A stretch of 64,000 bases of DNA from a virus (IMGVR_UViG_3300037851_000452:41846-105845); one strand, 5' to 3'. Positions 27,879 through 60,229 are shown, counted from the first letter of the stretch. Translations and numbers: made by a program. Notes: a model not told the origin generated them from the letters alone.

Positions 27879-27920
27879 ACCCAGACATACTTTTTATTAG
27901 TAGTGGTCAAACTAGGTCCC

Positions 27921-27949
27921 GATAAACTATACCGTCTATTTGGTATAAG
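27921..27949 (+). promoter_or_regulatory. Phage promoter GATAA-N16-GGTATAAG upstream of thyX
   Basis: Motif copy at the divergence point between recA and thyX. Confidence 0.6.
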
Positions 27950-28093
27950 TATTGTGTGGAGAAAAAATTTCCTCCTGGGCAGGGCGGGGCGGTTGAGGTG
28001 AATACCTTGGGCGCCCCGCCCAAAATTTAGCCCCCTTAAAGTTGAAAGAACGCACGATCGGTACTATCCACGTCGCTAGAAAGGAAACAGCCA

Positions 28094-28363
28094 ATGAGCA
28101 GCACAGACGTCATGCAAAAGCTATCCTCTGAGACCTTTACCGTAGGAAAGCACGGGTTCGTACGTATCGTAGATTGGATGGGGTATGACTCCTCCATCGT
28201 ACAAGCCGCTAGGGTTTCTTATGGGGCAGGCACAAAAACAGTGAGAGAGGACAAAGAGCTAATAAGGTACCTGATGCGAAAGGGGCATACCAGCCCGTTT
28301 GAGCACTGCGAGATCAAGCTTCACGTTCGCGTTCCAATGGATGTTTGGCGGCAGTGGATCCGT
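28094..28363 (+). CDS. thyX: Flavin-dependent thymidylate synthase, exon 1
   Basis: IVQAARVSY, LIRYLMRKGHTSPFEH, RQWIR, then interrupted. Confidence 0.9.
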
Positions 28364-29238
28364 TAAATCAGGCACCCAGAAAGTCTTACTAGGGGCTATA
28401 CATGCTTGTAGGTACAACTACACTAGGTGGGGTTTCAATAAAAAGGTTAACTCGTGGAAGTCAGCAGAAGGTACTTCTACGGTGTGACCAGTGCGGTAAA
28501 GAAACGATCACCTGGTGGGGTAACTACATCCAATATCAAGAAAAGACACAGCGAAACGGAAAGACATATTGTCAATCATGCGCTACCAAAATAGGTGGGG
28601 TAAAGAGAAAAGGCCGTAAGGCTCCCCACACAGCTAAAAGAAACAGTTCTCAGGTTGGAAAGAATCACCCCTCGTGGAGAGGCGGTCAGTACGTTGACGC
28701 AAACGGCTACCGTATGGTCAATGTACGCTCCGGACGTAGAAAATCAGGATGGGGAAACTACAAAAAAGAACACATACTTGTGGTTGAACGTAACATCGGA
28801 AGAAAGATCCTTAAGAGCGAGCTTGTTCACCACGTTGACGGGGTCAAGCTAAACAACCACATATCCAACCTGTTTTTAACGGATTCTTCTGGGCATAGAA
28901 ACGCGCATGTGTCTCTTCAAGATATTGGCTACGAGCTAGTTCGTAGCAAGCTAGTAAAGTTCAGTAAGAAAACTGGGAAGTATTCTGTGGCGGATGTAAA
29001 ACTCCGTGAACTGCTGGGACACCCTAAGATGCCTTCTGGGATCGGGCAATCAGCAGCCAAGCTTTTCAGGAATGAAAAGAAGGTTCAACGACTAGGTCAT
29101 GGAGCCCCAATGCCAAAAAAAGGTAATGGGCGGTAAAGACCCACGAGCGCGGAGCACGGGTAAACCGTGATGATATAGTCTGAGCTTTATGGAAACATAA
29201 AGAACACGGGGATAAAGAGCCCCATGGGTAACAAGATG
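28364..29238 (+). mobile_element. Group I self-splicing intron in thyX
   Basis: P element GAACTGCTGGGA, Q AATCAGCAGCC, R GTTCAACGACTA, S ATGATATAGTC; IGS TTCTGTGGCGGAT (28983-28995) pairs the 5' exon ATCCGT; ends in omega-G 29238. Confidence 0.9.
28402..29136 (+). CDS. Intron-encoded HNH homing endonuclease
   Basis: CDQC/CQSC, NHPSWRGG, EHILVVE...VHHVDGVKLNNHISNL; lies in the P1 loop and reads into the ribozyme core. Confidence 0.88.
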   Translation: MLVGTTTLGGVSIKRLTRGSQQKVLLRCDQCGKETITWWGNYIQYQEKTQRNGKTYCQSCATKIGGVKRKGRKAPHTAKRNSSQVGKNHPSWRGGQYVDANGYRMVNVRSGRRKSGWGNYKKEHILVVERNIGRKILKSELVHHVDGVKLNNHISNLFLTDSSGHRNAHVSLQDIGYELVRSKLVKFSKKTGKYSVADVKLRELLGHPKMPSGIGQSAAKLFRNEKKVQRLGHGAPMPKKGNGR

Positions 29239-29808
29239 AACAGAACCGCAGCAGTAAATGAATACTCTACTCGGTATTCCGAAGCCATCGACCTTATGGA
29301 AACTACGAATCCCTCCGACTGGAGGTTGCAGAGCAAGTCCAGTCGGCAAGGAAGCGACGCCGACTTCCTGTCCGAAGAACTAGGTAAGTCTTTAAGTCAG
29401 GGAGAAAGAAACATTCATGAAATGTGCCGTGCAGAATACAAAAAACGTCTGTCTCTAGGAGTGGCCAGAGAGCAGGCCAGAAAAGACCTTCCGCTCTCCA
29501 ACATGACGGAGGCGTACTGGAAGATTGACCTGCACAATCTACTCCACAACTTTCTTGCCAAAAGACTGAAACCAGAAGCCCAGCTAGAGATACGAAGGTA
29601 CGCCCAAGTCATAGCCGACATCGTTAAGAAATGGGTACCCCACACGTGGGAGGCGTTCGAGGACTACGTCCTAAACGCCATGACCCTGTCTAAAAGCGAA
29701 CTGGAGATAATCTCCTACCGTAAGCTGGGGGCGGTTCCTCTGTCCCCATCCGAGGTTAGGGAGCTGACCGAAAAGTGTGTCAAACTAGGGGTAGTCCTCG
29801 AGCCCTAG
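29239..29808 (+). CDS. thyX: Flavin-dependent thymidylate synthase, exon 2
   Basis: NRTAAVNEYSTRY, GVAREQARKDLP, AQLEIRRYA. Confidence 0.9.
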   Translation, partial: NRTAAVNEYSTRYSEAIDLMETTNPSDWRLQSKSSRQGSDADFLSEELGKSLSQGERNIHEMCRAEYKKRLSLGVAREQARKDLPLSNMTEAYWKIDLHNLLHNFLAKRLKPEAQLEIRRYAQVIADIVKKWVPHTWEAFEDYVLNAMTLSKSELEIISYRKLGAVPLSPSEVRELTEKCVKLGVVLEP

Positions 29809-32098: not shown

Positions 32099-32818
32099 AT
32101 GAAGGTTTCCCTAAGCATAGACCTAGATTTCTGGTGCCAGTCGAATCGGATCAACTTCATACCCGATCGCCACTACGACAAACTAGACCTAAACGGGTCA
32201 TGGAACGATGTGTTGAATTGGGCAGACGACCTGCACCACTACCGAACAGTTTTTAGAGCCCTACCCAACATCCATCAAAAGAACTCCATGAGGCATCTAT
32301 TAGGACGAGTGTGCTGTCTGCCAAGAAACGTAGCTGTACACGTAGTTGAACACCATGATGAGGTTCTTCCGTACGTTCAAAGTACGCCCTGTGACATGCT
32401 CATCAACATAGACGCTCACGATGACATAGTTGGGACAATGGACACGCCCAAACTAGGGCCGGGATCATGGGTAGACTTCGTAGAATGGAGAAAAGAAGCA
32501 ACGTACAAATGGATATACGCGTCACGATCTGTGCAGGACTATAGCCTATGCGGCCCTCCAGCACTGTGGAAAGAGCCCAGTCGATATACCGACTGGAAAA
32601 AGATTCAACGCTCAAACGACAGGTATGTCATACCTTGGGAAAATGTGTCTCTGGTAACTATTGCAGCAAGCCCCGACTACACCCTACCAAATTTTGGGCT
32701 GTTTGCCCTAAAACGTCTAGGAAACAGAGATGGCATACAGATAGACGAGGCAGTCCAAGAACTAGCAAAAAAGTGGGTCGTATCTAGCGCGCTCTTCTCC
32801 ACGTTCAAAGACCTGTAG
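32099..32818 (+). CDS. UPF0489 / arginase-deacetylase-fold metalloprotein
   Basis: SIDLDFW, EHHDEV, INIDAHDD, ASPDYT. Confidence 0.65.
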   Translation: MKVSLSIDLDFWCQSNRINFIPDRHYDKLDLNGSWNDVLNWADDLHHYRTVFRALPNIHQKNSMRHLLGRVCCLPRNVAVHVVEHHDEVLPYVQSTPCDMLINIDAHDDIVGTMDTPKLGPGSWVDFVEWRKEATYKWIYASRSVQDYSLCGPPALWKEPSRYTDWKKIQRSNDRYVIPWENVSLVTIAASPDYTLPNFGLFALKRLGNRDGIQIDEAVQELAKKWVVSSALFSTFKDL

Positions 32819-32916
32819 ACGGGCTTGAGACCTTGCTCCCACAAGAGGCCATCGCTAGACCTTCGCCATCCAACGCCACCACCATCTCAAGCCCGCCACA
32901 GAGTATGGTACCGCAT

Positions 32917-32945
32917 AAAAATATGAAGCGCCATTTCGTAATAAG
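32917..32945 (+). promoter_or_regulatory. Phage promoter (variant AAAAA-N16-GTAATAAG) upstream of the Cas7-like gene
   Basis: Motif variant followed by TATTGT as in other copies. Confidence 0.5.
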
Positions 32946-32990
32946 TATTGTAGTAGGACTATCACTTACCTATCTTACAGGAGACATTCA

Positions 32991-33851
32991 ATGGCATTTG
33001 TAGACATCAATGAAGTGGCAAACCGTACGGACCTGTTCAAAGAATTCAAGAGCAGGACTCAATGGGACGCGTTCGACTACTATTTTGTAGCTATTCACGT
33101 CCAAGAGATAGCCGGAGGCATACCGAAGAACGCGGACCTCTATAAGAGCTTCGTAGAAGCAAAGTGTAAGGAGAAAGAGGAGACGGAGAGGTCTCGAATC
33201 GTAGAGGCCCGAATCTCCGACCTTCCAACTATCGTGTCTGAGGAGGCAAAGAAGGGCTGGACAGGGTTCCTGTCCGACGAGCGGGGCCTGTACATCGAGG
33301 GCCGTCAAATAAAAGCCCTCTTCAAGGAGGCTGCCAACATCACCCGTGACATCGTCCCGGCAAAGATGTTCAAGAAGAAGACCAAGAAGGGCGCAGAAGC
33401 AGAAGCTGCGTCTATGACAGAGGAAGAGTTCCAGTCCCTGGACAAGGTGACTGGGATCACCAACCTCAAGTCAAAGATCGCGGACCAGATGTTCGTTTTG
33501 AACGGTCTGGTCGTTGAAGACCCTCAGGGGCGCTTCATAAAGACGAACGTCCACCTGGGTAAAACCCAAAGCGACGTTATCGTAGTGGAACAACCCATCC
33601 ACGTCATAACGCCACAAGGGCCAAGGTCGTCCATCAAAATCACTGACCGCGTCAAGGACTGCAACATCTCGTTCACCATACGAGTGTTGCGGAAATCAGA
33701 GATAGTGCCTGACACTATCATGGCTATCCTAGACTACGGTCAGGCGTTGGGGTTGGGGGCCGACAGGTCTCAAGGACTCGGCACCTTTGAAGTAAAGGCC
33801 GTCACCAAAATAAGTAGGGACGAGGCCTACGCCCTCATCCTACAACAGTAA
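32991..33851 (+). CDS. Stand-alone Cas7-like RAMP-superfamily RNA-binding protein
   Basis: beta1 YFVAIHV-EIAGG; GLYIEGRQIKALFKEAA (RAMP YIPxxxIKG-like helix); thumb-like EQPIHVITPQGPRSSIKITD; C-terminal Gly loop GLGADRSQGLGTFEV. Confidence 0.75.
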   Translation: MAFVDINEVANRTDLFKEFKSRTQWDAFDYYFVAIHVQEIAGGIPKNADLYKSFVEAKCKEKEETERSRIVEARISDLPTIVSEEAKKGWTGFLSDERGLYIEGRQIKALFKEAANITRDIVPAKMFKKKTKKGAEAEAASMTEEEFQSLDKVTGITNLKSKIADQMFVLNGLVVEDPQGRFIKTNVHLGKTQSDVIVVEQPIHVITPQGPRSSIKITDRVKDCNISFTIRVLRKSEIVPDTIMAILDYGQALGLGADRSQGLGTFEVKAVTKISRDEAYALILQQ

Positions 33852-33865
33852 TCCAACCTTCTTTT

Positions 33866-33899
33866 AGTAAGGCCCCCGGTATTTCGGGGGCCTACTTTT
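33866..33899 (+). terminator. Intrinsic terminator
   Basis: AGGCCCCCG-GTATTT-CGGGGGCCT then T-tract. Confidence 0.7.
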
Positions 33900-33909
33900 A
33901 GGTAATCAC

Positions 33910-34584
33910 ATGACCCACCTGTACGACTTGTATACGTCGTGCGACGAACGCATGGCCAAAAGGCTAGCCCGCACAACAGTGTCTTGCAAAAAAGGGTGTC
34001 ATGCGTGCTGCAAACAAATAACCATCGTTGCTAAAGCAGAGTCAGACCTGATCGCTAAAAGCCTTGTAGGGTCAAAAATAGACCTAAGAGATCTCATAAA
34101 AAGATTAGAAGAGTCCGCGGTGCTGATGTCACAGCACGACGATATGTTCGACTACTTCTGCCTAGATAAAAGGTGCGCGTTCTTAGACGATAAGAACGAA
34201 TGCATCGTGTACCCTGTAAGACCTGCAGCTTGCAGATACTACTATGTCACCACCTCTCCAGAAGAATGCTCCGAACCTGTTAGGGGGTCTACCATTACAG
34301 TAATCAACACCTCAGACCTGCAAGCCGAAGTATTCTGCTACTGCCTTCAGCTACAAGGAGAGCCTTGGGTAAGCCCGCTACCACTAGCAGTAATGCACTC
34401 CCTATTCCGAATTACTAAAGACGAGGAGTTGGGTACTATACTAAAGAGGCTTCCAGACCCTCAAAGGTGGATGGCTTACAGAATAGAGAACCCCCTAGTT
34501 GGCATGTTGGAAAGTCAGCGCAAAGAATTCAGAAAAGGTCTTATAGGAGCCATCAATGCTTTTGAAAACGAGAGACCTCGCTGA
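33910..34584 (+). CDS. YkgJ-family Fe-S/Zn cysteine-cluster protein
   Basis: CKKGCHACC, CAFL, CIVYPVRPAACR. Confidence 0.8.
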   Translation: MTHLYDLYTSCDERMAKRLARTTVSCKKGCHACCKQITIVAKAESDLIAKSLVGSKIDLRDLIKRLEESAVLMSQHDDMFDYFCLDKRCAFLDDKNECIVYPVRPAACRYYYVTTSPEECSEPVRGSTITVINTSDLQAEVFCYCLQLQGEPWVSPLPLAVMHSLFRITKDEELGTILKRLPDPQRWMAYRIENPLVGMLESQRKEFRKGLIGAINAFENERPR

Positions 34585-34738: not shown

Positions 34739-35224
34739 ATGTCTTACAAGATTCTTGTCCGAGGAGATACGAGTGATGTCAGCGTTACGTTATCAAACAT
34801 CCGCGCCCTGGGAACGGCTTCTGCCAATCCCTTCCCACCAGAGGACGACGTTTGGTGGGTATCTAGAGTTCTAGTTCAGAAAGCCCATCGGGGCAGGGGG
34901 ATAGGAAAGTTTCTGGTTGCTAACCTGGTCAACGCGGTAAGGAAGATGGGGGCAAAGAAGCTTATGGTATGCCCTGGCGGATACGACATCTCCTACGAAG
35001 ACCAGGTTAGGTTTTACGAATCATGCGGGTTCAAAAAGGAATCAGATCACTCGGGCAAGGAAGGCGCTTACTACTTGGACCTGGAAACAGAAGGCACTCC
35101 AAATGAAGTCCCAGACAGATGCAAAGTCTTCCTCTTTAAAGAGATGCAGGAAGAAGACATCCATGACCACGTTCTCCCCTCCCTGGATATTCGAGAACGG
35201 GGTACGGAGACACTCCTATCTTGA
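34739..35224 (+). CDS. GNAT-family N-acetyltransferase
   Basis: VLVQKAHRGRGIGKFLV (motif A), RFYESCGF. Confidence 0.85.
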   Translation: MSYKILVRGDTSDVSVTLSNIRALGTASANPFPPEDDVWWVSRVLVQKAHRGRGIGKFLVANLVNAVRKMGAKKLMVCPGGYDISYEDQVRFYESCGFKKESDHSGKEGAYYLDLETEGTPNEVPDRCKVFLFKEMQEEDIHDHVLPSLDIRERGTETLLS

Positions 35225-37479: not shown

Positions 37480-37713
37480 ATGGCCGCCAGGCACGTGATG
37501 GTGCATTTCACCGTCTACAACAAGCCTCGAGACTATCCTGACGAGGTCGTTGTTCGTAGGTGGTTCATAGAACCAGGCAAACCTGTCATCGACCCCGTGA
37601 TCTGGAAGATAGCGAAGACCCTAGAGGAGGCTCGTCGGAGCATACCTCCAGACAAACATAACATCGGGCGAATGCCCAGCGACGACCCATGCATTGTTGA
37701 GACATGGGTTTAG
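37480..37713 (+). CDS. Hypothetical phage protein
   Basis: AGGAG RBS; VYNKPRDYP...DDPCIVETW. Confidence 0.6.
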   Translation: MAARHVMVHFTVYNKPRDYPDEVVVRRWFIEPGKPVIDPVIWKIAKTLEEARRSIPPDKHNIGRMPSDDPCIVETWV

Positions 37714-37720
37714 GAAAAAC

Positions 37721-38539
37721 ATGCTTCTACAATTTACTCTTAGGTGCAACGAAGAATGCTCTCATTGCCTAGTAGATGCTGGTAAGAACCGAGACGAGTT
37801 CATAGACGAAAGGACCATTGAGCGGGTCATTTCGTACCTTAACCGGCTGGGGCCTATTCCCGTGCTAATAACGGGAGGAGAGGTCACGCTACACCCCAGA
37901 TGGTTGGAGTTCTCTAAGAAGCTAGTCAAAGAGACCAACAGCGTTTTTATGGTCTTGAGCAACGGGTCCTGGGTAGAGGACGAAGAGATACAAAACGGCG
38001 TAAGGGAGCTCTTGGACCTCAAAAAGGTTATAGGGATGCAGGTTACCTCTTTCGAGAAGTACTACCCGAACTACCAGCGCATGGTTCGTCTTCAAGACAA
38101 GCTCAAAGAAGTCCACTCGAAAATAGGGCTGGTTCTAGGAGAAAAAAGCCACTGCCTAACCCCGCTAGGAAGAGCAGCAGGGATGAAACCTGAAGGAAAA
38201 CAGTTCTCTGGGTGCTCTAACTTTCTACTAGTGTGCCGTCAAGTAGACACCTGGTATAGCGCGCACTGGGAGCTCGCCAAGGCGCAAAAATTGTGCGTCC
38301 CCGTAATAGACACGCATGGAGACATACGAATCGGTGAGACCCAGCATTGCACCAAAATAGGCGACGTAGACGATAGCAACCACGATCTGTTCAACCGGGC
38401 CCTAAAACTGGAGCCTTGCGGAAAGTGCGGTCTTAGGTCCCCTTTTTCCAGGAGTGACGAATGCTCAGACTTGTTTCAGTCGTTGTTGCAGCCGTTCTCT
38501 GCTCGTGCACAGCGGAAGATCGAAGCATCCAAGCCCTAA
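37721..38539 (+). CDS. Radical SAM protein with C-terminal Cys cluster (SPASM-like)
   Basis: CNEECSHC, ITGGE, LSNG. Confidence 0.85.
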   Translation: MLLQFTLRCNEECSHCLVDAGKNRDEFIDERTIERVISYLNRLGPIPVLITGGEVTLHPRWLEFSKKLVKETNSVFMVLSNGSWVEDEEIQNGVRELLDLKKVIGMQVTSFEKYYPNYQRMVRLQDKLKEVHSKIGLVLGEKSHCLTPLGRAAGMKPEGKQFSGCSNFLLVCRQVDTWYSAHWELAKAQKLCVPVIDTHGDIRIGETQHCTKIGDVDDSNHDLFNRALKLEPCGKCGLRSPFSRSDECSDLFQSLLQPFSARAQRKIEASKP

Positions 38540-38771: not shown

Positions 38772-40358
38772 ATGCAGAACTACACGGAGCACTTTGGCGG
38801 CAAGAACGCGAAGCAGGGAGAGGTCATTCCTGGAAAGGAAAAGAACATGACCTTGAACTCCTGCAACAACTACGTGTTCCGTGTCGGTCCCTGGAACAGG
38901 CTGGAGCGTTTCCTGGTCTTGGGGTCGGACAAGAACACCTACTACGCTTCGGCCAAGAAGCTGACCAGGGAGAATGCGGCAGTTATCGAAGAGCTTATCC
39001 GGGTGGACAACCGCCGGCTCGTCGATACCATTGTTCGTATCTCTGATGAAGGCCGGGCTCCCAACAACGACCCGGCCCTGTTTGCCCTGGCCATGGCTAC
39101 GGTGTTTGGTGACAAGTCTATGGCCATGGATGCCCTTCCCAAGGTTGCGCGTATCGGAACGCACCTGCTCCACTACTTGGAGTACACCAAGGGTCTGGGA
39201 GTTCTTTGGAGACGTACCTTCCGAAAGGGCGTTGCCAATTGGTTCAACGGTAAGGACGTTGGAAACTTGGCCTACCAGGCCATCAAGTACAAATCCCGCG
39301 ATGGCTGGTCCATGCGAGACGCTCTTCGTCTGTCGCATCCCAGTCCCAAAGAGGACGTCGCTCGAGATGCCCTCTATCACTGGATTGTCAAAGGGGTCCT
39401 CAAGGAAGGGATCCCGGACCAGGTAGCGGCGGCGGCCGAGGTCATGTCTCTTGGTACTAAGGACATCAGCAGGTCGGCGGAGCTGATCGTAAAACACCGA
39501 CTTCCTCGAGAGGCTCTGCCTACAGAGCTGCTGTCGGATGCTCGGATATGGGACGCCCTGCTTAAAGGGATGCCTTTGGGGGCCCTGGTCCGTAACCTGG
39601 GAAAGATGTCCAGTTTGGGCATGTTGAATCCGTTTTCCGAAACGTCCAAGGAGATTTGCCGCCGACTTACGGCAGAAGAAGAGATCAAGAAGTCCAGACT
39701 TCATCCTGTTGCCCTGCTGTCCGCTCTACGAGTGTACAAGCAAGGTCGTGGAGATAAGGGATCTCTTAGTTGGTCCGTAAACAACATGGTCTCTAGTGCT
39801 CTAGAAGACGCGTTCTACCTGTCGTTCAAGACCATTGTTCCGACAGGAAAGAACATTGGCCTGTTCCTAGACGTATCTGGGTCTATGGAAGGCGGAGAGA
39901 CAGCTGCTGGTCTGAGCCCCAGAGAGGCATCGGCGGTGTTGGCCATGGTTACGGCTCGCAGCGAGCCCAACTATGAGTGCTGGGCATTTTCCAGTGGCAT
40001 TGTGCCGTTCAAGCTAAGCAAGTCCTCGTCTTTGAAGGAGACGGTAGACGCTATGCGCGCTCTCCCGTTTTCATCTACGGACTGCTCGCTGCCCATGACC
40101 ATGGCAACGAAAAGCAAGATACCGCTGGATGCCTTTATCGTATACACGGACTGTGAGACCAACCATTCCGGCTCACTGCATCCGTCTCGAGCGCTGCAGG
40201 TCTTCCGTCAAAAGATGGGCCGACCAGCTAAGCTGATTGTGGCCGGAATGGTGTCTAATGGGTTCAGCATTGCGGACCCCGAAGACGGTGGTATGCTGGA
40301 CGTGGTGGGGTTTGATTCTTCTGCCCCGTCCGTCATGGCGGACTTCGTAAGAGATTGA
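38772..40358 (+). CDS. rsr: Ro60/TROVE-domain RNA-binding protein (Rsr)
   Basis: RLERFLVLGS..TYY, KYKSRDGWSMRDALRLSHP, RNLGKM, SRLHP; vWA domain LDVSGSM, TDCSLPM, VYTDCET, MLDVVGFD. Confidence 0.95.
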   Translation: MQNYTEHFGGKNAKQGEVIPGKEKNMTLNSCNNYVFRVGPWNRLERFLVLGSDKNTYYASAKKLTRENAAVIEELIRVDNRRLVDTIVRISDEGRAPNNDPALFALAMATVFGDKSMAMDALPKVARIGTHLLHYLEYTKGLGVLWRRTFRKGVANWFNGKDVGNLAYQAIKYKSRDGWSMRDALRLSHPSPKEDVARDALYHWIVKGVLKEGIPDQVAAAAEVMSLGTKDISRSAELIVKHRLPREALPTELLSDARIWDALLKGMPLGALVRNLGKMSSLGMLNPFSETSKEICRRLTAEEEIKKSRLHPVALLSALRVYKQGRGDKGSLSWSVNNMVSSALEDAFYLSFKTIVPTGKNIGLFLDVSGSMEGGETAAGLSPREASAVLAMVTARSEPNYECWAFSSGIVPFKLSKSSSLKETVDAMRALPFSSTDCSLPMTMATKSKIPLDAFIVYTDCETNHSGSLHPSRALQVFRQKMGRPAKLIVAGMVSNGFSIADPEDGGMLDVVGFDSSAPSVMADFVRD

Positions 40359-44928: not shown

Positions 44929-44990
44929 GACTGTACGTACCCAAACTCGCCAAGCCAGACCAACCACAACGCAGACCTGCCGGAACCTAC
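44929..44990 (+). repeat. Pentamer-periodic (NNCNN) array, short
   Basis: GACTG TACGT ACCCA AACTC GCCAA GCCAG ACCAA. Confidence 0.6.
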
Positions 44991-46961: not shown

Positions 46962-46973
46962 GGCTCGAAGTCT

Positions 46974-47108
46974 GACAAACCAAACCTAATGACTACTCGA
47001 GTCTACCCATGTCATCTCAGGCCAAGTCTTTTCGTTACGAACGACGACTCGCCCCGACCCCTGTCGTAGTTACCGGCCCGCCTCGACTACCCATCACATG
47101 GCGGCACA
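46974..47108 (+). repeat. Pentamer-periodic (NNCNN) array
   Basis: GACAA ACCAA ACCTA AT / GACTA CTCGA GTCTA CCCAT GTCAT CTCAG GCCAA GTCTT TTCGT TACGA AC / GACGA CTCGC CCCGA CCCCT GTCGT. Confidence 0.8.
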
Positions 47109-48103: not shown

Positions 48104-48367
48104 GTGGAAAGGTCAATCTACACGGCCCTACGTGCTAAGCTAAAAAGAGAGGTAGAGGCCCAAGCCAAGACGAATCGAGTGGCTATATGGCCGCAAGGAA
48201 GCATACCCGTAAAGATGGGTAACAGGATTATGGTAGTCTCTGTTCAAGAACAAATAAGAGCCTGGCCTGAGTTGATGAAGGACTTGGGCCTGGTGCACGA
48301 TAGCAAGATGCAGGTTTGGACCATTCCAGGAAAAGGGTATAGGGAAGAGGAACTTCTCAGGATATAG
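48104..48367 (+). CDS. Hypothetical protein
   Basis: AAGGA RBS, GTG start. Confidence 0.5.
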   Translation: MERSIYTALRAKLKREVEAQAKTNRVAIWPQGSIPVKMGNRIMVVSVQEQIRAWPELMKDLGLVHDSKMQVWTIPGKGYREEELLRI

Positions 48368-48372
48368 CAACT

Positions 48373-48700
48373 GACAAGCCTACCCGGCCCTTCCCGACCC
48401 CGAACTGGCCGCGTAACACGAGTCAAGCCGACGTGACATGACGACCCAAGATCAACGCGACCCGACAGACAAACCAAACTCATTGACTATACGTCCCCGC
48501 CCCTGCCCAGACATTGGACAAGCCACCACGGCCCTACCCACGGCATCGAGACTTGGGTATTCTAAAGGTGCGCCGAGGACGCTTCTTTTGACCGTAATCA
48601 ACCAGCTCAGGTCCTTGTGGATGGAACTCTGCCTCGGCGCACTTTTAATAAGACAACCCTCTTGACTACACATGCCGTGACGATGCACCCCTGCTCGGCC
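48373..48700 (+). repeat. Pentamer-periodic array interrupted by a hairpin RNA
   Basis: GACTA TACGT CCCCG CCCCT GCCCA GACAT TG / GACAA GCCAC CACGG CCCTA CCCAC GGCAT; followed by a GGCCTG/CAGGCC hairpin and T-tract. Confidence 0.75.
48558..48650 (+). ncRNA. Rod-like RNA with a degenerate SRP-domain-IV-like core
   Basis: 15-bp stem AAAGGTGCGCCGAGG/CCTCGGCGCACTTTT enclosing AACCAGCTCAGGTCC-TTGT-GGA. Confidence 0.35.
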
Positions 48701-49517: not shown

Positions 49518-49940
49518 ATGACGGTGAGCGCTATTCTTCTGTCTCTTTTCCTGAACACCCCCACGGACCCGTGCGGTATCGGATGTGTGTCTCGTTCCGG
49601 AAATCTCTTCACCGGATATTCGTATTCGGTAGAAGGCGGTGAGTCCCTATCAGAGGGAGACATTACCTGGGCGTTTGCCCGGTATCCTCTGCTCGACGAG
49701 CGGTTGAAACTGCATCAGACCGTTTGGGGAGTTCAGCTAGGCATTTCCATTGTCGGTGTATCGGCGTCTGGATACTACGTCTGGAAGGCCACGAACTCCA
49801 ACTACCGAAAGAACATGGACCGTGTCTATGCGATAGCCGGAACGTCACTAATCCTAAACGTGGCGTTGGGGTTGTTTCGCAACTACGTCTATGGTTCTTT
49901 GGGAGACGAGTACAATGTGCTCCTAGGGCAAGAGCAATAG
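49518..49940 (+). CDS. Membrane protein
   Basis: Signal peptide plus two transmembrane segments. Confidence 0.55.
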   Translation: MTVSAILLSLFLNTPTDPCGIGCVSRSGNLFTGYSYSVEGGESLSEGDITWAFARYPLLDERLKLHQTVWGVQLGISIVGVSASGYYVWKATNSNYRKNMDRVYAIAGTSLILNVALGLFRNYVYGSLGDEYNVLLGQEQ

Positions 49941-50072
49941 ACGAGCCACCGCATCACGATCAGTAACGAGCCCTAAAAGGAACAAACCAAACCAGCAGAC
50001 AAGCCGTTTTGGCCCACTCCATCCCAAAAGACGAGACATGTCGAGTCAAGACGTGTCACGAGACGTTACAAC
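49940..50072 (+). repeat. Pentamer-periodic array
   Basis: GACAA GCCGT TTTGG CCCAC TCCAT CCCAA AA / GACGA GACAT GTCGA GTCAA GACGT GTCAC GA (32-nt units). Confidence 0.75.
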
Positions 50073-51757: not shown

Positions 51758-51972
51758 CCGAAGAAAGAACGTGCGACCCTGATTGCTGGTGCCACCTATG
51801 CCAGCGCGCGGCTCAGCAGTTGTGTGAGCCGAAGACAAACCAATCCACTACTAGAGAAAGAGTTAGCGTGTCCAAGCGGATTCGGGATAGCTGGAGCTCT
51901 ACCTGTCTTGCTCTCTCTTCAACGGTTAAGCAGCTCTGGAAAGAGATAGACAGCCTAGGAGAGGATCCATAA
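51754..51972 (+). CDS. Hypothetical protein
   Basis: ATGA-coupled; CDPDCWCHLC. Confidence 0.45.
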   Translation: MTEERTCDPDCWCHLCQRAAQQLCEPKTNQSTTRERVSVSKRIRDSWSSTCLALSSTVKQLWKEIDSLGEDP

Positions 51973-52210
51973 GACAAAGCGAGCCATCCCGGAACATCCA
52001 AGACGCCCCATATGGACACCACACGACAAGCCATCCACACTCAAACGACTACTCATTTCTCCCCAACTGCGTCCCTCCCCATTAGACAACCCCTCTCACT
52101 ACGCCACGCCGCTACCCCATCCGTCAGACACCCCCGACCCGAACGCTGCTGACCTGGTCGAATAGACTACACATGGCGCCCCGTAACCCCGCATTCCTCA
52201 ATGACCCGCC
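51973..52210 (+). repeat. Pentamer-periodic array
   Basis: 52085: GACAA CCCCT CTCAC TACGC CACGC CGCTA CCCCA TCCGT CA (8/8 C3); followed by a GGTGGGGAGG/CCTCCCCACC hairpin. Confidence 0.8.
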
Positions 52211-52242
52211 TGGTGGGGAGGTTATTCCTCCCCACCTAATCA

Positions 52243-52271
52243 GAAATTCTTTCTTAGGTTTTAGGTATAAG
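52243..52271 (+). promoter_or_regulatory. Phage promoter GAAAT-N16-GGTATAAG
   Basis: Motif copy. Confidence 0.6.
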
Positions 52272-52308
52272 AATGTTGGTAATCTACAACATTACTTAGG
52301 GGTAAAAG

Positions 52309-53959: not shown

Positions 53960-53977
53960 GGCAACGGCCAGCCAAAA

Positions 53978-54173
53978 GACAAACCGAACTCGACCCTTCC
54001 GACTGACAGAACACACCACTTCGGTTCACGACAGTCCTCGACACATCAAAAGACGAGTCTCGACGTTCCAATACGACCCAATACGAATAGACTGGCCAAG
54101 ACTTCGCAAGACCTGACACGCCGAAAAGACAAGTAGACTCTTCTGCCCTTGCCGCCCCAAGCCCGTAATGACG
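53978..54173 (+). repeat. Pentamer-periodic array
   Basis: 54052 GACGA GTCTC GACGT TCCAA TACGA CCCAA TACGA ATA / 54090 GACTG GCCAA GACTT CGCAA GACCT GACAC GCCGA AAA (38-nt units). Confidence 0.8.
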
Positions 54174-55762: not shown

Positions 55763-56059
55763 ATGACCATTCAAGTAGACGGTGTAAGCGAGCCTGTTAA
55801 CTACAACGTCAAGCCGGCCGATATCAGAGAGCCGGATATGGGCGCAAAGGCAGTCACCAAGGAACATCTGGCTGCTCTAGACGCGCAGCTAGACTTGGTT
55901 GCTGTGTCTCTTCAAGAAAGAAACCAGCGCTCGATGTGCGTTAACGGCTGTGGAGAGCCTGTGTGCCCGCCGAGCAAGGTTATCTGCAGAAAGTGCCAGG
56001 ACAGAATAACCAATATTCTCATGGCCTTGGCTAATGACCCGGACATTAGGAATGACTAG
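55763..56059 (+). CDS. Zn-finger hypothetical protein
   Basis: CVNGC...CRKC. Confidence 0.5.
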   Translation: MTIQVDGVSEPVNYNVKPADIREPDMGAKAVTKEHLAALDAQLDLVAVSLQERNQRSMCVNGCGEPVCPPSKVICRKCQDRITNILMALANDPDIRND

Positions 56060-56603
56060 CGACGAGTCTGGACATGCCACGACGTCTTGAACCGAGACGT
56101 AGACAAACCAATTTGACAAGACGAGACGTCATACGGCATTTCAACCCCTGTAGACGATGCGTCCCGAGACTGGCCAAGACGATACGGGCCCGTTTACAGA
56201 AACCGGGTCGTAATGACCTGGACATTGACAAACCAACGCAAGTGACAAGCCGAAGCGAGACGCCCTCAGCCTATCCTTTTCGCCGGACGCTACGTGCCAG
56301 AAGCTTCCCGCCCCCTTAAGACAATACGTGACCGCACGCCATAGCTCCAACCGTCTAGACTATCCTGGCCCCCCCGTAACCTGCCTTAACGTTAGACGTC
56401 CCTAGACGATCTGTCTCGTCTCAGACCCCACCGACTATCCTGGCCACATCGAGACTAACCACCCCAAACGACCTGCCGCGAAGGCCGCCCCCTCCCGTGA
56501 TGACTAGCCATCCCAAGACATCCCAAGACACCACCACCGGACATCACAGACCCCGTCCCGCCGCGTCCGTTACACTCTGACTTCCCGCCACGATTCCTTA
56601 CGC
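56054..56603 (+). repeat. Longest pentamer-periodic array (about 550 nt)
   Basis: e.g. 56358 GACTA TCCTG GCCCC CCCGT AACCT GCCTT AACGT TA (37 nt); GACTA GCCAT CCCAA GACAT CCCAA GACAC CACCA. Confidence 0.82.
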
Positions 56604-56604
56604 G

Positions 56605-56633
56605 AACAAATCACAAAGGCCTTTAGGTATAAG
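56605..56633 (+). promoter_or_regulatory. Phage promoter AACAA-N16-GGTATAAG
   Basis: Motif copy followed by an AGAGCTCAGGC/GCCTGAGCTCT leader hairpin. Confidence 0.55.
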
Positions 56634-56694
56634 TAGTGTGAAGAGGAAGAGCTCAGGCAATATCGCCTGAGCTCTAACCTCAAAGGAGGACAGG

Positions 56695-57067: not shown

Positions 57068-57382
57068 ATGGAGAATCTCTTCAATGTTTTAGGCGACCTT
57101 ATGGCAAAGGATAAGGCCGCTGGCCTTGTTTACTACTCTCTAGACGAGAACAACCAGCCTGTCCCTTGTAGTAGGCCTGCGATACAGCCGTTGAAGCAGA
57201 CGAAAGTAGGGGACAGGGTAGTTTCTACCGTCTTCTTGAGCATCAACCATGCTTTCGATGACGGCCCACCGGTGTTGTGGGAGACGATGGTCTTTCCGGA
57301 AGGGGATTGCCGTCGATACACTACGCACAAAGACGCCCTAGAAGGGCATGAAGAGCTCGTAAGGGCTCTTCAAGGCGATTAG
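57068..57382 (+). CDS. Hypothetical phage protein
   Basis: AAAGGAGGT RBS; VSTVFLSINH...PVLWETMVF...RYTT...ALEGH. Confidence 0.65.
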   Translation: MENLFNVLGDLMAKDKAAGLVYYSLDENNQPVPCSRPAIQPLKQTKVGDRVVSTVFLSINHAFDDGPPVLWETMVFPEGDCRRYTTHKDALEGHEELVRALQGD

Positions 57383-57745
57383 ACGTGTCAGCTCGCGACG
57401 ACCGCGGCTCAACGCACGTCTGGACAAACCAAAGCATTGTGACAAGCCATCTCGAAACAGTCCCATTGACTATACGGGCCCTGCCGACCCCACACTACCC
57501 CGATAGACGAACCCTCCCACTACGTGCAGATCTATCCCTATGACAAACCATTAGACATTCCGGCACGTGACGCCCCTCACCCCGTCCCATAAGACTGGCC
57601 AGGTCTTCCCGACACCGCTCGTGGCCCCCCGACTCATCCTGACTGACCACCCCGCCGCAATACAGCTCGCCCCCAATGACTACCCGTCACGCCCCACTCC
57701 TGCCCTACTCGATAGACAATACATTCTCTGTCGAACCTACCCACC
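57382..57745 (+). repeat. Pentamer-periodic array ending at a terminator
   Basis: 57641 GACTG ACCAC CCCGC CGCAA TACAG CTCGC CCCCA AT / 57678 GACTA CCCGT CACGC CCCAC TCCTG CCCTA CTCGA TA. Confidence 0.82.
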
Positions 57746-57749
57746 ACTC

Positions 57750-57773
57750 AGGGGGCTCACAGAGCCCCCTTTA
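57750..57773 (+). terminator. Intrinsic terminator after the array
   Basis: AGGGGGCTC-ACA-GAGCCCCCT-TTA. Confidence 0.6.
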
Positions 57774-57831
57774 TATGTCCCCATCTTCGACTCTTAATAA
57801 GTGCTTAGAACGTTTTGTACCGTACCCACTT

Positions 57832-58161
57832 CTAGTATTTCGGCATTTTAGGGTCTATTAAGCTCTTCCTATAATCGTCTTTCCACTCCCTACCGTGGCG
57901 GGCGATTTCACTTTTTGGTGTATAATGTAATTCTCCTATAGCTTTTTCTGGTAGATAAGTTAATTCTCCTTTAGCTATAGCTTTTTTACGGCCAGCTTCA
58001 TAAGCAGCAACTCTAGGAGCAAGTATAGAACTATGCCTTTTCTGTCCTACTATAAATCGTCGTTCTCTTTCCAAAGCCTCCGCGTCATCAAGATCAAGAT
58101 CTAACCACGTACGTTTCGGACGACGTGCCAACTTCTGGTACGAGTTGAGTCCTTCCCTCAT
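57832..58161 (-). CDS. Hypothetical basic protein (AT-richer DNA)
   Basis: 109 aa ORF; no clear RBS. Confidence 0.4.
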   Translation of the reverse strand: MREGLNSYQKLARRPKRTWLDLDLDDAEALERERRFIVGQKRHSSILAPRVAAYEAGRKKAIAKGELTYLPEKAIGELHYTPKSEIARHGREWKDDYRKSLIDPKMPKY

Positions 58162-58347
58162 CAGGAGGTTCGGTAAGCCGTGCGTCTGCTGCGGGGCAGA
58201 CCTCGGCTACTACGTAACCAAAAGAGGGAGCCGCTGTAGGAGGTGCGGAATTTTGGACTAAAACTCACTCGCCCAGGAGAGGTTCACCCCCTCTCTCTTA
58301 TCCCATGGCTAAAAGAGGGGATGAGCCCCTTTGTAAATCACCAGCGG

Positions 58348-58599
58348 TCAGACCCCGTCGCAACTGTTGCAATGAATCCAACCGTCCTCCCCTCGATAGT
58401 CACCACTACGACTACCGCAATAGCCGCAGGGCTCCTCTAACCTCTCAGCCTTCAACCCCTCCCAGAAATAAGAGGCGGTCCCCCTATAGACCACCCCATC
58501 CGAGTATTTTACCAGGATGTCATCCCCATCCTGGCAGGCCTCTACTTCGGCCTTGGAATCATCCCAGTTCGTAACCACAAACGACCCTAAAAACTCCAT
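58348..58599 (-). CDS. Hypothetical protein with C-terminal Zn ribbon
   Basis: AAAGGAG RBS, own promoter; CGYC...CNSC. Confidence 0.6.
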   Translation of the reverse strand: MEFLGSFVVTNWDDSKAEVEACQDGDDILVKYSDGVVYRGTASYFWEGLKAERLEEPCGYCGSRSGDYRGEDGWIHCNSCDGV

Positions 58600-58621
58600 G
58601 GTAAAACTCCTTTCCACTATT

Positions 58622-58650
58622 CTTATACCGAAATGACCAGAATAAATTTT
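58622..58650 (-). promoter_or_regulatory. Phage promoter AAAAT-N16-GGTATAAG (minus strand)
   Basis: Motif copy in reverse orientation, upstream of a minus-strand gene. Confidence 0.6.
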
Positions 58651-58970
58651 ATCCTATGGTAACATATGGTAGATAAAGTTATTCACCTTGGGACGTAATC
58701 CCTAATGGTGGGGATTACGGTTATCGCCATATGTTGCCATAGGATAAATTTATTCCTACCCACGGTTTTACCCCCAGAAAAAATCTACCCGTAGAAAATC
58801 TCCCCCAGCGGTATTGGGGTCCCTTAATTCCCGGCAGGGTAGGGTATAGAAAATCTACCCCCGTGATGCTGAGGACTCCATAAAGTCAAAATCTACCCCA
58901 GCGATATTGGGTCCTCTGTGTACAAGTATTGACCCACCCCTTTCCCTTTTCATAGCCATAGTTCTACCCC
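58640..58970. repeat. Long inverted repeat plus AAAATCTACCC iteron-like repeats (putative origin)
   Basis: 58640-58676 pairs 58721-58755; four AAAATCT(A/C)CCC copies between about 58780 and 58900. Confidence 0.55.
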
Positions 58971-58977
58971 TTAAAGT

Positions 58978-59006
58978 GAAAATCTAGACCATCTGTCCGG
59001 TATAAG
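58978..59006 (+). promoter_or_regulatory. Phage promoter GAAAA-N16-GGTATAAG
   Basis: Perfect consensus. Confidence 0.65.
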
Positions 59007-59078
59007 GATTATGACTAGGAAACCCCTAGTCCTCGCCTTGGCATGATGCTGAAGGCGAGTCTTGCCCAGGAGGTTGTC

Positions 59079-59261
59079 ATGACGAACATTCGGAAGTGGT
59101 TGGCTGACGAGGCCCCGAAGGCGAAGGCGAAGGACGCCGGCAATGGTGGCGGGTGGATGCTCCCCACGGGCGTGGGCGTGGGCGCCCTCGCCCTCGGCCT
59201 CGCCGCGGGTCGCTACATCATCCCCAAGCAGAAGGAGGAAGTCGCCCCCTCCCGCAAGTAA
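59079..59261 (+). CDS. Small single-TM protein
   Basis: AGGAGG RBS before MTNIRKW; hydrophobic GVGVGALALGLAAG. Confidence 0.55.
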   Translation: MTNIRKWLADEAPKAKAKDAGNGGGWMLPTGVGVGALALGLAAGRYIIPKQKEEVAPSRK

Positions 59262-59426
59262 ACGCGGGAGGTGAAGAGGTCCCCACTCACATCGACAAAA
59301 CAACGAGTGGGGACCTCTCTCTTACCTGTTCTTTTTTACCTTATCTAATGACCCGGACATTACAGCTAGGTTTTATCAAGTGAATACAACCGCTTACATC
59401 TTGTCTAATGTCCGGGTCATTAAGGT

Positions 59427-59455
59427 GAAAAGCTGACTACACGTACGGGTATAAG
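59427..59455 (+). promoter_or_regulatory. Phage promoter GAAAA-N16-GGTATAAG, 4 bp downstream of a palindrome copy
   Basis: Perfect consensus. Confidence 0.65.
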
Positions 59456-59476
59456 AAAGTTGAAAGGAGGTTCCTT

Positions 59477-59608
59477 ATGGAACTGGAACTGTTTGAAGAG
59501 GAGCTGGAGGAGCTCGCCAAGGCGGAAGAGGCGGAGAAGGTCGTGGAGACGGAAGCCAGCCGTCGAAACGACCAGAGTGAGGATGAGGCCCCCACCAACA
59601 AGCCGTAG
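59477..59608 (+). CDS. Small highly acidic protein (43 aa)
   Basis: AAAGGAGG RBS; MELELFEEELEELAKAEEAEKVVETEASRRNDQSEDEAPTNKP. Confidence 0.55.
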   Translation: MELELFEEELEELAKAEEAEKVVETEASRRNDQSEDEAPTNKP

Positions 59609-59890
59609 TCTACGGCTGGAGACCGTAGACTACGGCTGGAGAGCTAAAGCTCTCCTATTAGCCCATTAACAGAATCCTATGGCAACGTATGGTAAATAAT
59701 TTAATCAGCTAACTACCTGTTTCTAAACGTCTTTTGGAGGTCTGTATGATTCTCTTTATCCTCTGGGCAAGTAAGAGGGGAGGTGCTTCGCACATTGTCT
59801 CATTTCATGAAAGGAGGGAGATGTATCTCTTTGTCTCATTTCTTGAGGGGGGTGTGTTTTGTCCATTATCTCGGTCTGTAGGTGGTGTCT

Positions 59891-60229
59891 ATGCGTATGT
59901 GGTGTATTCCTGCCTATTTGTTATGCGCGCGTCATCTTCTTGGGGAGCATAAGGAGTTGCATATGCTTTCGGGTAGTCTACGTTTGGGGCGCGCCCTTGG
60001 GGGATATATTAGCGGGGGATTGATTGAGGTGCATTCTATAGTGGCGCGGCATGGGGAGTTGGTGGAGGAGTTTGGTCGGAGGGGGTATGTCCATAGGAGT
60101 CCTTTGGTTGGGGAGTTCTTTATGGCGGGGAAAGTTGATGTTGCGCGCTCGTTGAGTGATTTGAAGGCGCGGTGTGTGGAATGTCGGAGGAGGATAGAGA
60201 GTGCAGAAGTTGAAGGCGCGGTTGTTTGA
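59891..60229 (+). CDS. denV: Pyrimidine dimer DNA glycosylase (DenV/endonuclease V-like)
   Basis: MRMW...LCARHLLGEHKELH...RHGELVEEFGRRGYVHRSP. Confidence 0.75.
   Translation: MRMWCIPAYLLCARHLLGEHKELHMLSGSLRLGRALGGYISGGLIEVHSIVARHGELVEEFGRRGYVHRSPLVGEFFMAGKVDVARSLSDLKARCVECRRRIESAEVEGAVV

What the first reader, a model, noticed from the sequence alone, without database searches (positions are those of the whole stretch)
32991..33851. Orphan Cas7-like protein as an independent transcription unit
Seen: GLYIEGRQIKALFKEAA, a thumb-like hairpin (PIHVITPQGPRSSIK) and a C-terminal glycine loop GLGADRSQGLGTFEV in the order expected for RAMPs, between a promoter (32917) and a terminator (33866). Alternative inference: an anti-CRISPR decoy subunit that poisons host Cascade.
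Basis: partly seen in the sequence, partly recalled or inferred. Interest (0 to 1): 0.8.

Follow-up and report, generated by a model that had tools for sequence, protein, structure and literature searches.

The report
Phage Vipr-type RAMP with pentamer arrays
The gene encodes a phage RAMP protein that is a distant relative of CRISPR Cas7 and most likely belongs to the recently described VIPR RNA-guided systems; its guide-like five-base repeat arrays are scattered elsewhere in the phage genome rather than lying beside the gene.

Summary
The 286-aa ORF at 32991-33851 (+) is real. Its three motifs sit where a confident model (pLDDT 89) places helix 1, the thumb hairpin and the glycine loop of a RAMP. 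Best fold matches are Cas7 proteins (Z 10-11; Foldseek E 4e-7). The anti-CRISPR decoy idea is not supported.

The protein belongs to a large, almost purely viral family (805 cluster representatives) with no cas genes or CRISPR arrays nearby. In relatives the gene is flanked on the same strand by 190-1275 nt non-coding arrays of NNNCC pentamers. Short motifs ending in GAC punctuate these arrays, which evolve faster than the gene.

This matches the VIPR systems described in 2026 preprints: a Vipr RAMP plus pentanucleotide vrRNAs that silence competing phages. A profile comparison with the phage SUSP1 Vipr family gives 93.5% probability (E 2e-7).

The window's gene has no adjacent array. Eight dispersed arrays with the same GAC-phased grammar lie 11-24 kb downstream on the same strand.

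Two differences from the published type II system: the arrays are C-rich on the gene's strand, not G-rich, and they are dispersed. The transcribed strand is unresolved.

Other first-stage notes on this same genome flagged the RAMP-plus-array link independently.

The parts
32917..32960 (+). promoter-like motif upstream of the gene: A(T/C)AAA-N17-TA(T/A)AAGTA(T/G)TGT
   Evidence: Shared with + strand sites near 27920-27955 and 56605-56640, with a looser copy at 52257-52275. Not found by the sigma-70 consensus scan. Function is inferred.
32980..32983 (+). ribosome-binding site GGAG, 7 nt before the ATG
   Evidence: Read from the sequence.
32991..33851 (+). Vipr-like RAMP protein gene, 286 aa
   Evidence: ORF; model pLDDT 89.4; Cas7 top fold matches; hhalign to the SUSP1 Vipr family 93.5%, E 2.3e-7.
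33870..33893 (+). intrinsic terminator-like hairpin followed by a T-rich tail
   Evidence: 10-bp stem, 8 G-C pairs, loop 4.
44929..44987 (+). short GAC-headed array with C every fifth base
   Evidence: Run of 7 NNN[AC]C pentamers and a grammar cluster; no ORF of 70 aa or more.
46966..47097 (+). GAC-headed pentamer array in an intergenic gap
   Evidence: Second-highest C periodicity in the record; GACAARCC head at 46974.
48365..48560 (+). GAC-headed pentamer array
   Evidence: Runs of 8 and 6 pentamers; 13 GAC against 2 GTC.
49940..50072 (+). GAC-headed array filling the gap after a stop codon
Evidence: Sequence read and included in the phase profile. GACAARCC at 49998.
51970..52200 (+). GAC-headed pentamer array, followed by a GC hairpin at 52213-52237
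   Evidence: C 43%, G 15%, 10 GAC.
53960..54170 (+). GAC-rich array with the strongest 5-nt C periodicity of the record
   Evidence: Score 0.088, about 8 sd above the record mean; 15 GAC against 2 GTC.
56040..56620 (+). longest array, about 580 nt, starting right after a copy of the 17-nt phage motif
   Evidence: 14 grammar hits; 34 GAC against 11 GTC; C 36%.
57380..57740 (+). array after ORF 57070-57382, closed by a + strand terminator at 57750-57770
   Evidence: 7 grammar hits, C 40%, G 18%; terminator.

Best explanation
The ORF encodes a Vipr-type RAMP, the single-protein effector of a VIPR (Viral Interference Programmable Repeat) system carried by a large environmental phage.

By analogy with the published SUSP1 system, copies of the protein would polymerise head to tail along a non-coding RNA made of five-base repeats, one protomer per repeat. 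The G-loop, helix 1 and thumb would hold the fixed bases of each repeat. The variable bases would be left free to read a gapped DNA target. The filament would then bind that DNA and block transcription of a competing phage, satellite or prophage.

In this phage the RNA templates are not beside the gene. They are at least eight dispersed tracts at 44.9-57.7 kb, built from GAC-headed units with C at every fifth base.

Shown here: the RAMP fold, profile-level homology to Vipr, the gene-array association in relatives, the shared array grammar in the window, and model support for head-to-tail self-association.

Inferred, not shown: that the arrays are transcribed and on which strand, that the protein binds them, and that the complex targets DNA.
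For: Fold: Foldseek top hits are Cmr4, Csm3 and type VII Cas7 (E 4e-7 to 1e-5). The VIA-align wide search gives 8yhd_A Z 11.2 (rmsd 2.9, 137 aligned), 9g9a_D Z 10.7, 6s6b_I Z 10.4 and 6ae2_B Z 10.2.

Sequence: the family profile hits only RAMP G-loops in the PDB, below threshold (Csm4 E 0.043, type VII Cas7 E 0.11).

Family: 805 cluster representatives, 93-100% viral in the ESM Atlas, 110 relatives in IMG/VR of which 80 were fetched, and only 11 MAG contigs among 185,579 species genomes.

Arrays in relatives: in 36 of 71 non-identical loci, the locus-wide maximum of 5-nt C periodicity lies within 600 nt of the gene on the same strand, and in about 12 more at a weaker score. The chance expectation is 7%. 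In 1,346 runs from 92 arrays, the three bases before each run are G, A, C at 58%, 54% and 73%. Arrays turn over faster than the gene: L110/L111 share 97% gene identity but the arrays are about 68% identical and not collinear; L101/L102 differ by a 72-nt indel.

Known system: the VIPR preprint describes a phage RAMP with flanking pentanucleotide vrRNAs. The SUSP1 locus was fetched and read. hhalign of the window family against the SUSP1-type Vipr family gives 93.5%, E 2.3e-7, 125 columns covering helix 1, thumb and G-loop. An unrelated control alignment gives 0.3%.

Window arrays: C frequency after GAC heads is 78, 65, 60 and 58% at offsets 7, 12, 17 and 22, against a flat 21-30% elsewhere in the window. 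Relatives show 83, 80, 77 and 77% at the same offsets. GACAARCC occurs 21 times forward and 3 reverse, with 3.9 expected. (NNN[AC]C)x6 occurs 9 times forward and 0 reverse, with 0.6 expected.

Self-association: three copies give ipSAE 0.62 against a best control of 0.00. The runs agree in at least 67% of contacts and the partner pLDDT is at least 71. In the tool's calibration this mark was reached by 20 of 30 proteins solved as pairs of one chain and by 1 of 23 solved as single chains. That calibration used two copies and its own alignments, so the counts hold only roughly. The interface is asymmetric, residues 1-27 against 240-285. A pass here may reflect likeness to solved RAMP filaments.
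Against: No array lies next to the gene in the window, and canonical NNNCC runs are no more frequent than in shuffled sequence across the 105,845-bp record. The link between the gene and the dispersed arrays is therefore by grammar only.

On the gene's strand the arrays are C-rich, whereas SUSP1 arrays are G-rich on the vipr strand. No conserved structured 3' tail was seen, and no Rfam family including hammerhead matched in 11 loci.

Homology to Vipr is detectable only profile to profile. HMMER gives a weak G-loop match. SUSP1 H17, which the structure preprint reports as reading the first G, has no conserved counterpart.

No vap-like partner was recognised beside the window gene.

The preprint's type tables were not available, so placement among its seven types is untested.
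Confidence: 0.78

Rival explanations
1. Cis-acting RNA-binding protein of the phage's own transcripts. The C-rich GAC-headed tracts are leaders and trailers of + strand mRNAs. The RAMP would coat or cut them to control stability, processing, termination or translation of the neighbouring genes. It would not guide DNA recognition.
For: In the window the arrays fill gaps between co-directional + strand genes. One follows the 17-nt motif that elsewhere precedes ribosome-binding sites (56035). One ends in a + strand terminator (57750-57770). In relatives such as L099, L165 and L040 the array runs from the stop codon to the next RBS. C-rich, G-poor RNA is typical of unstructured protein-binding or Rho-loading sites (own knowledge).
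Against: Unit contents are hypervariable between near-identical phages, which suits guides better than regulatory sites. The homologous Vipr is reported to use such repeats as guides. No catalytic residue pattern of Cas6 or Csm3 is conserved.
Confidence: 0.12
2. Anti-CRISPR decoy or crRNA sponge. The RAMP, alone or with array RNA whose GAC or AAC heads resemble 8-nt crRNA 5' tags, would enter or titrate host type I or III complexes.
For: Precedent exists: viral Cas homologues AcrIB3 and AcrIB4 assemble into defective Cascade, and RNA anti-CRISPRs mimic repeats. Some array heads (ATTGCGAC in L099, (A/T)TTGCAAC in L023, ACGGAAC in L040) resemble known type III tags. That resemblance rests on my own recollection and is only a lead.
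Against: There is no significant sequence similarity to any Cas family. The family's own motifs are conserved in a cyanophage and in contigs binned with several bacterial phyla, whereas a decoy should track each host's Cas7. No acr or aca neighbours were found in 133 flanking genes of 40 loci.
Confidence: 0.05
3. DNA-level element. The arrays would be iterons of a replication origin or packaging site, and the RAMP a single-strand DNA-binding protein of the replication module.
For: Neighbours in relatives are often replication genes: DnaB-type helicase, primase, PolA, clamp loader, exonuclease and ParB.
Against: Arrays are not conserved between near-identical phages. Their polarity relative to the gene is nearly fixed, with only 2 opposite-strand cases noted. 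This phage has eight arrays. None of this fits an origin.
Confidence: 0.04

Closest known systems
VIPR systems: Vipr RAMP plus vrRNA; type II of Escherichia phage SUSP1 and a Pseudomonas fulva prophage (bioRxiv 10.64898/2026.04.26.720920 and 10.64898/2026.04.26.720927)
   Same: Phage-encoded single small RAMP with one RRM, a thumb and a G-loop. No cas genes and no CRISPR array. Flanking non-coding tandem pentanucleotide repeats with fixed and hypervariable positions. Profile-level homology (93.5%). Predicted head-to-tail self-association, matching the reported one-protomer-per-repeat filament.
   Different: The fixed bases are C or CC on the gene's sense strand, whereas SUSP1 has GGY on the vipr strand. 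Units are separated by a short GAC-ending head instead of a roughly 40-nt structured 3' tail. Units are 3-12 pentamers rather than 9-16. The protein is larger (220-286 aa against about 195) and has an N-terminal helical extension. In this window the arrays are dispersed over 13 kb, far from the gene. No vap homologue was recognised.
Non-canonical VIPR-like arrays found by a genomic language model (bioRxiv 10.64898/2026.10.21.760802)
   Same: Period-5 arrays with fixed motifs other than GGY, next to Vipr-like folds.
   Different: That paper lists GAC/NN, CAC/NN, WGT/NN and TGH/NN units repeated about ten times. Here GAC is a unit head followed by NNN(C)C pentamers. Whether this family is among its 21 clusters could not be checked.
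Cas7 backbone subunits of class 1 CRISPR effectors: Csm3, Cmr4, type VII Cas7
   Same: Best structural matches (Z 10-11), the same order of RRM, thumb and G-loop, and filament-forming subunits.
   Different: No Pfam RAMP hit. No Cas5, Cas6, Cas8, Cas10 or Cas11 partners and no repeat-spacer array. The catalytic Asp loop of Csm3 is not conserved. RNA periodicity is 5 nt rather than 6.
Viral Cas homologues acting as anti-CRISPRs: AcrIB3, AcrIB4, AcrVIA2 (bioRxiv 10.1101/2023.06.24.545427)
   Same: cas-like genes in phages without arrays or operons.
   Different: Those were found by tblastn at E below 1e-4 to real Cas proteins. This family has no such similarity and carries its own arrays.

Membership tests
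RAMP superfamily | RRM (ferredoxin-like) core with a thumb hairpin between beta2 and beta3 and a glycine-rich loop before beta4 | tested here: met
   Model secondary structure. Top 17 structure matches are all RAMPs at Z 8.6-11.2. Foldseek prob 1.00. Conserved G254 x G256 ... G262 x G264.
RAMP superfamily | Match to Pfam RAMPs (PF03787) or a Cas7, Cas5 or Cas6 profile above threshold | tested here: not met
   No Pfam hit for the window protein. Only sub-threshold Cas_Cas6_C hits in 8 of 47 members and RAMPs hits in 3 of 47. This is expected for a remote RAMP lineage.
CRISPR-Cas class 1 effector (Cas7 subunit) | Encoded with other cas genes (Cas5, Cas8, Cas10 or Cas11) and a repeat-spacer array | tested here: not met
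   No PF03787 elsewhere in the record. No arrays in the window. No cas genes among 133 neighbours in 40 loci.
VIPR system (Vipr protein) | Homology to described Vipr proteins | tested here: met
   hhalign of A1 against A6 (SUSP1-type, including a marine-sediment protein that may be the paper's seed): 93.5%, E 2.3e-7, 125 columns. Control 0.3%. Single-profile HMMER is weak. No joint phylogeny was made.
VIPR system (Vipr protein) | Tandem pentanucleotide repeat arrays flanking the vipr gene | tested here: inconclusive
   Met in relatives: 36-48 of 71 loci against 7% expected. Not met next to the window gene. Eight dispersed arrays with the same GAC-phased grammar lie in the window.
VIPR system (Vipr protein) | Repeat unit GGY/NN, or the published variants NNNGG, YNNNG or NNNNG, in the vrRNA | tested here: inconclusive
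   On the gene's strand the unit is NNNCC, or NNNNC in the window. Position 3 is S-biased, not R. The complement would be NNNGG or NNNNG. The transcribed strand is unknown.
VIPR system (Vipr protein) | Conserved structured 3' tail after each repeat tract | tested here: not met
   Units abut one another, separated by 4-8 nt heads ending in GAC or AAC. No Rfam family matched in 11 loci. The preprint does describe tail-less 'staggered' arrays.
VIPR system (Vipr protein) | Accessory vap gene in a two-gene operon | tested here: inconclusive
   A helical protein family of unknown function (A2; phrog_4604) sits just upstream in about 25-30 of 60 loci. It is unrelated to SUSP1 vap1 and absent beside the window gene.
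VIPR system (Vipr protein) | Protein oligomerises along the RNA, one protomer per repeat | not testable with these tools
   Only protein-protein prediction was available. Three copies gave ipSAE 0.62 against a best control of 0.00, with an asymmetric interface.
VIPR system (Vipr protein) | Guides match DNA of competing elements under the 1-nt skip rule | tested here: inconclusive
   Exact gapped patterns from two long units of relatives (L101, L019) found nothing in IMG/VR.

The most novel reading that the evidence does not exclude
This clade uses a mirror-image form of the VIPR code. The guide would be the C-rich strand, co-transcribed inside ordinary + strand mRNAs as leaders and trailers. 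A 5' GAC head would set the register, and a C (or CC) at every fifth base would be held by the protein in place of GGY. One trans-acting Vipr gene would serve many dispersed guide cassettes across a phage genome estimated at roughly 190 kb (105,845 bp at 55% CheckV completeness).
Probability: 0.3. Interest if true: 0.75.

Novelty: new variant of a known kind. Interest (0 to 1): 0.55.

Why it matters
VIPR was reported only in 2026 preprints, as a minimal RNA-guided DNA-binding system and a proposed forerunner of CRISPR effectors. This window adds a divergent clade that is almost entirely metagenomic. Its only cultured carrier found here is Microcystis phage Mae-JY09.

If the differences hold, they widen the known design space of the gapped code. 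Those differences are array polarity, GAC-headed units without a structured tail, and arrays scattered through the genome and served in trans by one gene. They would also show that array searches limited to the vipr neighbourhood or to G-based motifs miss part of the diversity.

It also corrects the tempting reading of lone viral Cas7-like genes as anti-CRISPR decoys.

Tried and rejected
- **Database family searches.** Pfam, PHROGs and PDB sequence searches with the single protein gave nothing useful.
- **Conserved protein partner.** None is universal. The upstream helical family A2 is present in under half of the loci and absent from the window.
- **Apparent long or fused forms.** Long ORFs (348-497 aa) in high-GC contigs are start-codon artefacts of my crude ORF caller.
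- **CRISPR arrays.** None in the window. The hits from my crude detector were the pentamer arrays or coding tandem repeats.
- **Upstream RNA structure.** Folding 32815-32995 gave z -0.7, not significant.
- **Target prediction.** Exact IMG/VR scans with the 1-nt-skip pattern and with concatenated NNN triplets, for the 12-pentamer unit of L101 and the 11-pentamer unit of L019, gave 0 hits each. This is uninformative because no mismatches are allowed.
- **Strand of the RNA.** Terminator counts around 114 arrays were 21 antisense-type at the gene-proximal end and 9 sense-type at the distal end. The window has a + strand terminator after one array. These conflict, so the question stays open.
- **Ribozymes.** No hammerhead or other Rfam family matched in 11 loci.
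- **Preprint supplements.** Not held, so the VIPR type could not be assigned.
- **Resemblance of array heads to crRNA 5' tags.** Rests on memory only and is not used as evidence.

Full report
**The observation**

The ORF at 32991-33851 (+) encodes 286 aa. GGAG lies 7 nt before the ATG, and a strong hairpin terminator lies at 33870-33893. The sigma-70 scan finds no promoter at 32917. The stretch 32917-32950 does carry a two-part motif, A(T/C)AAA-N17-TA(T/A)AAGTA(T/G)TGT. This motif recurs on the + strand upstream of thyX and after the array at 56.6 kb, with a looser copy at 52.26 kb. The stand-alone transcription unit is therefore plausible but not shown.

The surrounding record is an IMG/VR virus contig of 105,845 bp, with CheckV completeness of 55%. 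It has typical phage content:
- thyX split by a group I intron that carries an HNH gene
- RecA, a DNA ligase and an amidase
- a Ro60/TROVE protein
- radical SAM and GNAT enzymes
- two tRNAs

**Fold**

No Pfam family matched, only weak PHROG matches appeared, and no PDB sequence matched. An alignment of 47 homologues gave an AlphaFold2 model with mean pLDDT 89.4 and pTM 0.83.

Foldseek against the PDB returns only Cas7-type proteins at the top: Cmr4 6s6b_I at E 4e-7, then Csm3 and type VII Cas7. The Foldseek-independent search of 48,161 chains gives:
- 8yhd_A: Z 11.2, rmsd 2.9, 137 aligned
- 9g9a_D: Z 10.7
- 6s6b_I: Z 10.4
- 6ae2_B: Z 10.2

Its first 17 rows are all CRISPR RAMPs. A profile of the family finds, below threshold, almost only RAMP G-loops in PDB sequences.

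**The family**

An exhaustive search finds 805 cluster representatives at E of 0.001 or better. The ESM Atlas clusters are 93-100% viral. IMG/VR holds 110 relatives, of which 80 were fetched. Among 185,579 species genomes only 11 MAG contigs carry it. Among 50,697 deposited phage genomes only Microcystis phage Mae-JY09 and one gut phage do.

Conserved positions cluster after beta1 (GGxP), in helix 1 (K108, K112, E113), at the thumb tip (G210, R212) and in the G-loop (GLGADRSQGxG). Neighbours in 40 dereplicated loci are heterogeneous and mostly replication genes. They include no cas or acr genes. A helical protein of unknown function lies just upstream in under half of the loci, but not in the window.

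**The arrays**

A crude repeat scan, followed by a periodicity scan, showed a non-coding tract next to the gene in relatives. It lies on the same strand and usually starts within 100 nt of the stop codon. It is 190-1275 nt long and made of NNNCC pentamers in runs of 3-12. Short lineage-specific heads ending in GAC or AAC punctuate it.

- **Association with the gene.** There are 71 non-identical loci with at least 3 kb on both sides. In 36 of them the strongest 5-nt C periodicity of the whole locus lies within 600 nt of the gene on its strand. About 12 more show this at a lower score. The chance expectation is 7%.
- **Head motif.** Across 92 arrays and 1,346 runs, the three bases before a run are G, A, C at 58%, 54% and 73%.
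- **Rate of change.** The arrays change much faster than the gene.

**Identification**

[quoted passage not shown] It describes VIPR systems as follows:
- a phage-encoded ancestral RAMP, Vipr
- flanking vrRNAs made of 9-16 YNNGG repeats
- often an accessory vap gene
- seven types, with variant motifs (NNNGG, YNNNG, NNNNG) and variant array layouts, including tail-less staggered arrays

A companion preprint reports that Vipr protomers form a helical filament, one per repeat. Thumb and G-loop residues read GGY, and the NN bases pair with DNA under a 1-nt skip. A third preprint reports non-canonical period-5 motifs next to Vipr-like folds.

I fetched the phage SUSP1 locus. It has vipr at 28474-29061 and vap1 at 28031-28471, both on the minus strand, with G-rich YNNGG arrays on the gene's strand. 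I collected its family and aligned it. The profile-profile comparison with the window's family gives 93.5% probability, E 2.3e-7, over 125 columns that include helix 1, the thumb and the G-loop. An unrelated alignment scores 0.3%.

**The window's own arrays**

No array lies beside the gene. Strict NNNCC runs are no commoner in the record than in shuffled sequence. The + strand between 44.9 and 57.7 kb nevertheless holds eight C-rich, G-poor, GAC-rich non-coding tracts:
- (NNN[AC]C)x6 occurs 9 times forward and 0 reverse, with 0.6 expected.
- GACAARCC occurs 21 times forward and 3 reverse, with 3.9 expected.
- GAC density is 5.6 per 100 nt in the tracts against 1.8 elsewhere.

The phase test is the decisive one. 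After a GAC head, C frequency peaks at offsets 7, 12, 17 and 22 (78, 65, 60, 58%). GACs elsewhere in the window give a flat 21-30%. The arrays of 30 relatives peak at exactly the same offsets (83, 80, 77, 77%).

The phage therefore carries the same kind of array, in a more degenerate form (one fixed C per pentamer), dispersed and 11-24 kb from the gene. Other first-stage notes on this genome reached the same link and grammar. I read them after my own detection. They added the array at 49940-50072.

**Self-association**

Three copies of the protein gave ipSAE 0.62 against a best control of 0.00. The runs agreed in at least 67% of contacts and the partner pLDDT was at least 71. In the tool's calibration this mark was reached by 20 of 30 proteins solved as pairs of one chain and by 1 of 23 solved as single chains. 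That calibration used two copies and its own alignments, so the counts hold only roughly.

The interface is head to tail: residues 1-27 of one copy pack against helix 240-253, strand 266-274 and the C-terminal helix of the next. This fits an open filament. It may partly reflect likeness to solved RAMP filaments.

**What remains open**

The transcribed strand is unknown. Evidence points both ways:
- **For the C-rich strand.** In the window the arrays sit inside + strand operons. One follows the 17-nt motif that elsewhere precedes ribosome-binding sites, and one ends in a + strand terminator.
- **For antisense, G-rich RNAs.** Homology with a G-reading protein suggests this. In relatives, antisense-type terminators between gene and array outnumber sense-type ones, 21 to 9 of 114.

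Exact-match target searches found nothing. No RNA-seq could be reached. The preprint's type tables were not available.

**Verdict**

'Cas7-like' is right as a fold description. 'Orphan' and 'anti-CRISPR decoy' are not the best readings. The gene is most likely the effector of a VIPR-type system, in a divergent clade with mirror-polarity, GAC-headed arrays that are dispersed in this phage.

Noticed in passing
window 18295, 24656, 26812, 32072, 35782, 46176, 54174(-), 54196, 56035, 57040, 59349, 59406(-) and others: A 17-nt near-palindrome, TAATGACCCGGACATTA, occurs 16 times at up to 2 mismatches, against 0.26 expected. Several copies lie directly before an RBS (32072, 54196, 57040). One lies directly before the longest pentamer array (56035). 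It could be a phage promoter, an operator or an RNA hairpin.
   Followed up: partly
window 28094-29808: thyX (Thy1 family) is split in two by a group I intron (Rfam RF00028 at 28931-29202, 88.9 bits). The intron carries an HNH endonuclease ORF at 28402-29136.
   Followed up: partly
window 38772-40358 (+), with tRNA-Met at 41128 and tRNA-Leu at 44425: The phage encodes a Ro60-like protein with TROVE and vWA domains (vWA_Ro60 E 1e-57). No Y RNA was detected by Rfam at gathering threshold.
   Followed up: no
loci L025:1709-2353, L040:7442-7969, L059:7044-7748 and about 25 others: A poorly conserved helical protein family (alignment A2; one member hits phrog_4604, function unknown) lies just upstream of the Vipr-like gene in under half of the relatives. 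It is a candidate accessory (vap-like) gene. It is unrelated to SUSP1 vap1 by hhalign.
   Followed up: partly
L081 (Microcystis phage Mae-JY09, PP395641.1 37713-38976): The only cultured phage found with this family carries the gene as its last annotated CDS (37713-38459). It is followed by about 500 nt of unannotated NNNCC/CGAC array that runs to the end of the record.
   Followed up: partly
window 59800-60400: A strongly G-skewed stretch on the + strand, with short tandem repeats nearby (59603-59642, 59795-59863, 60055-60082). It lies in a 3-kb region without ORFs of 120 aa or more (57382-60419).
   Followed up: no
window 33910-34584, 34739-35224 and 37694-38539: Downstream of the RAMP gene lie a CxxCxxCC (YkgJ-type) Fe/Zn-binding protein, a GNAT acetyltransferase and a radical SAM enzyme. 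None is conserved next to the gene in relatives.
   Followed up: partly
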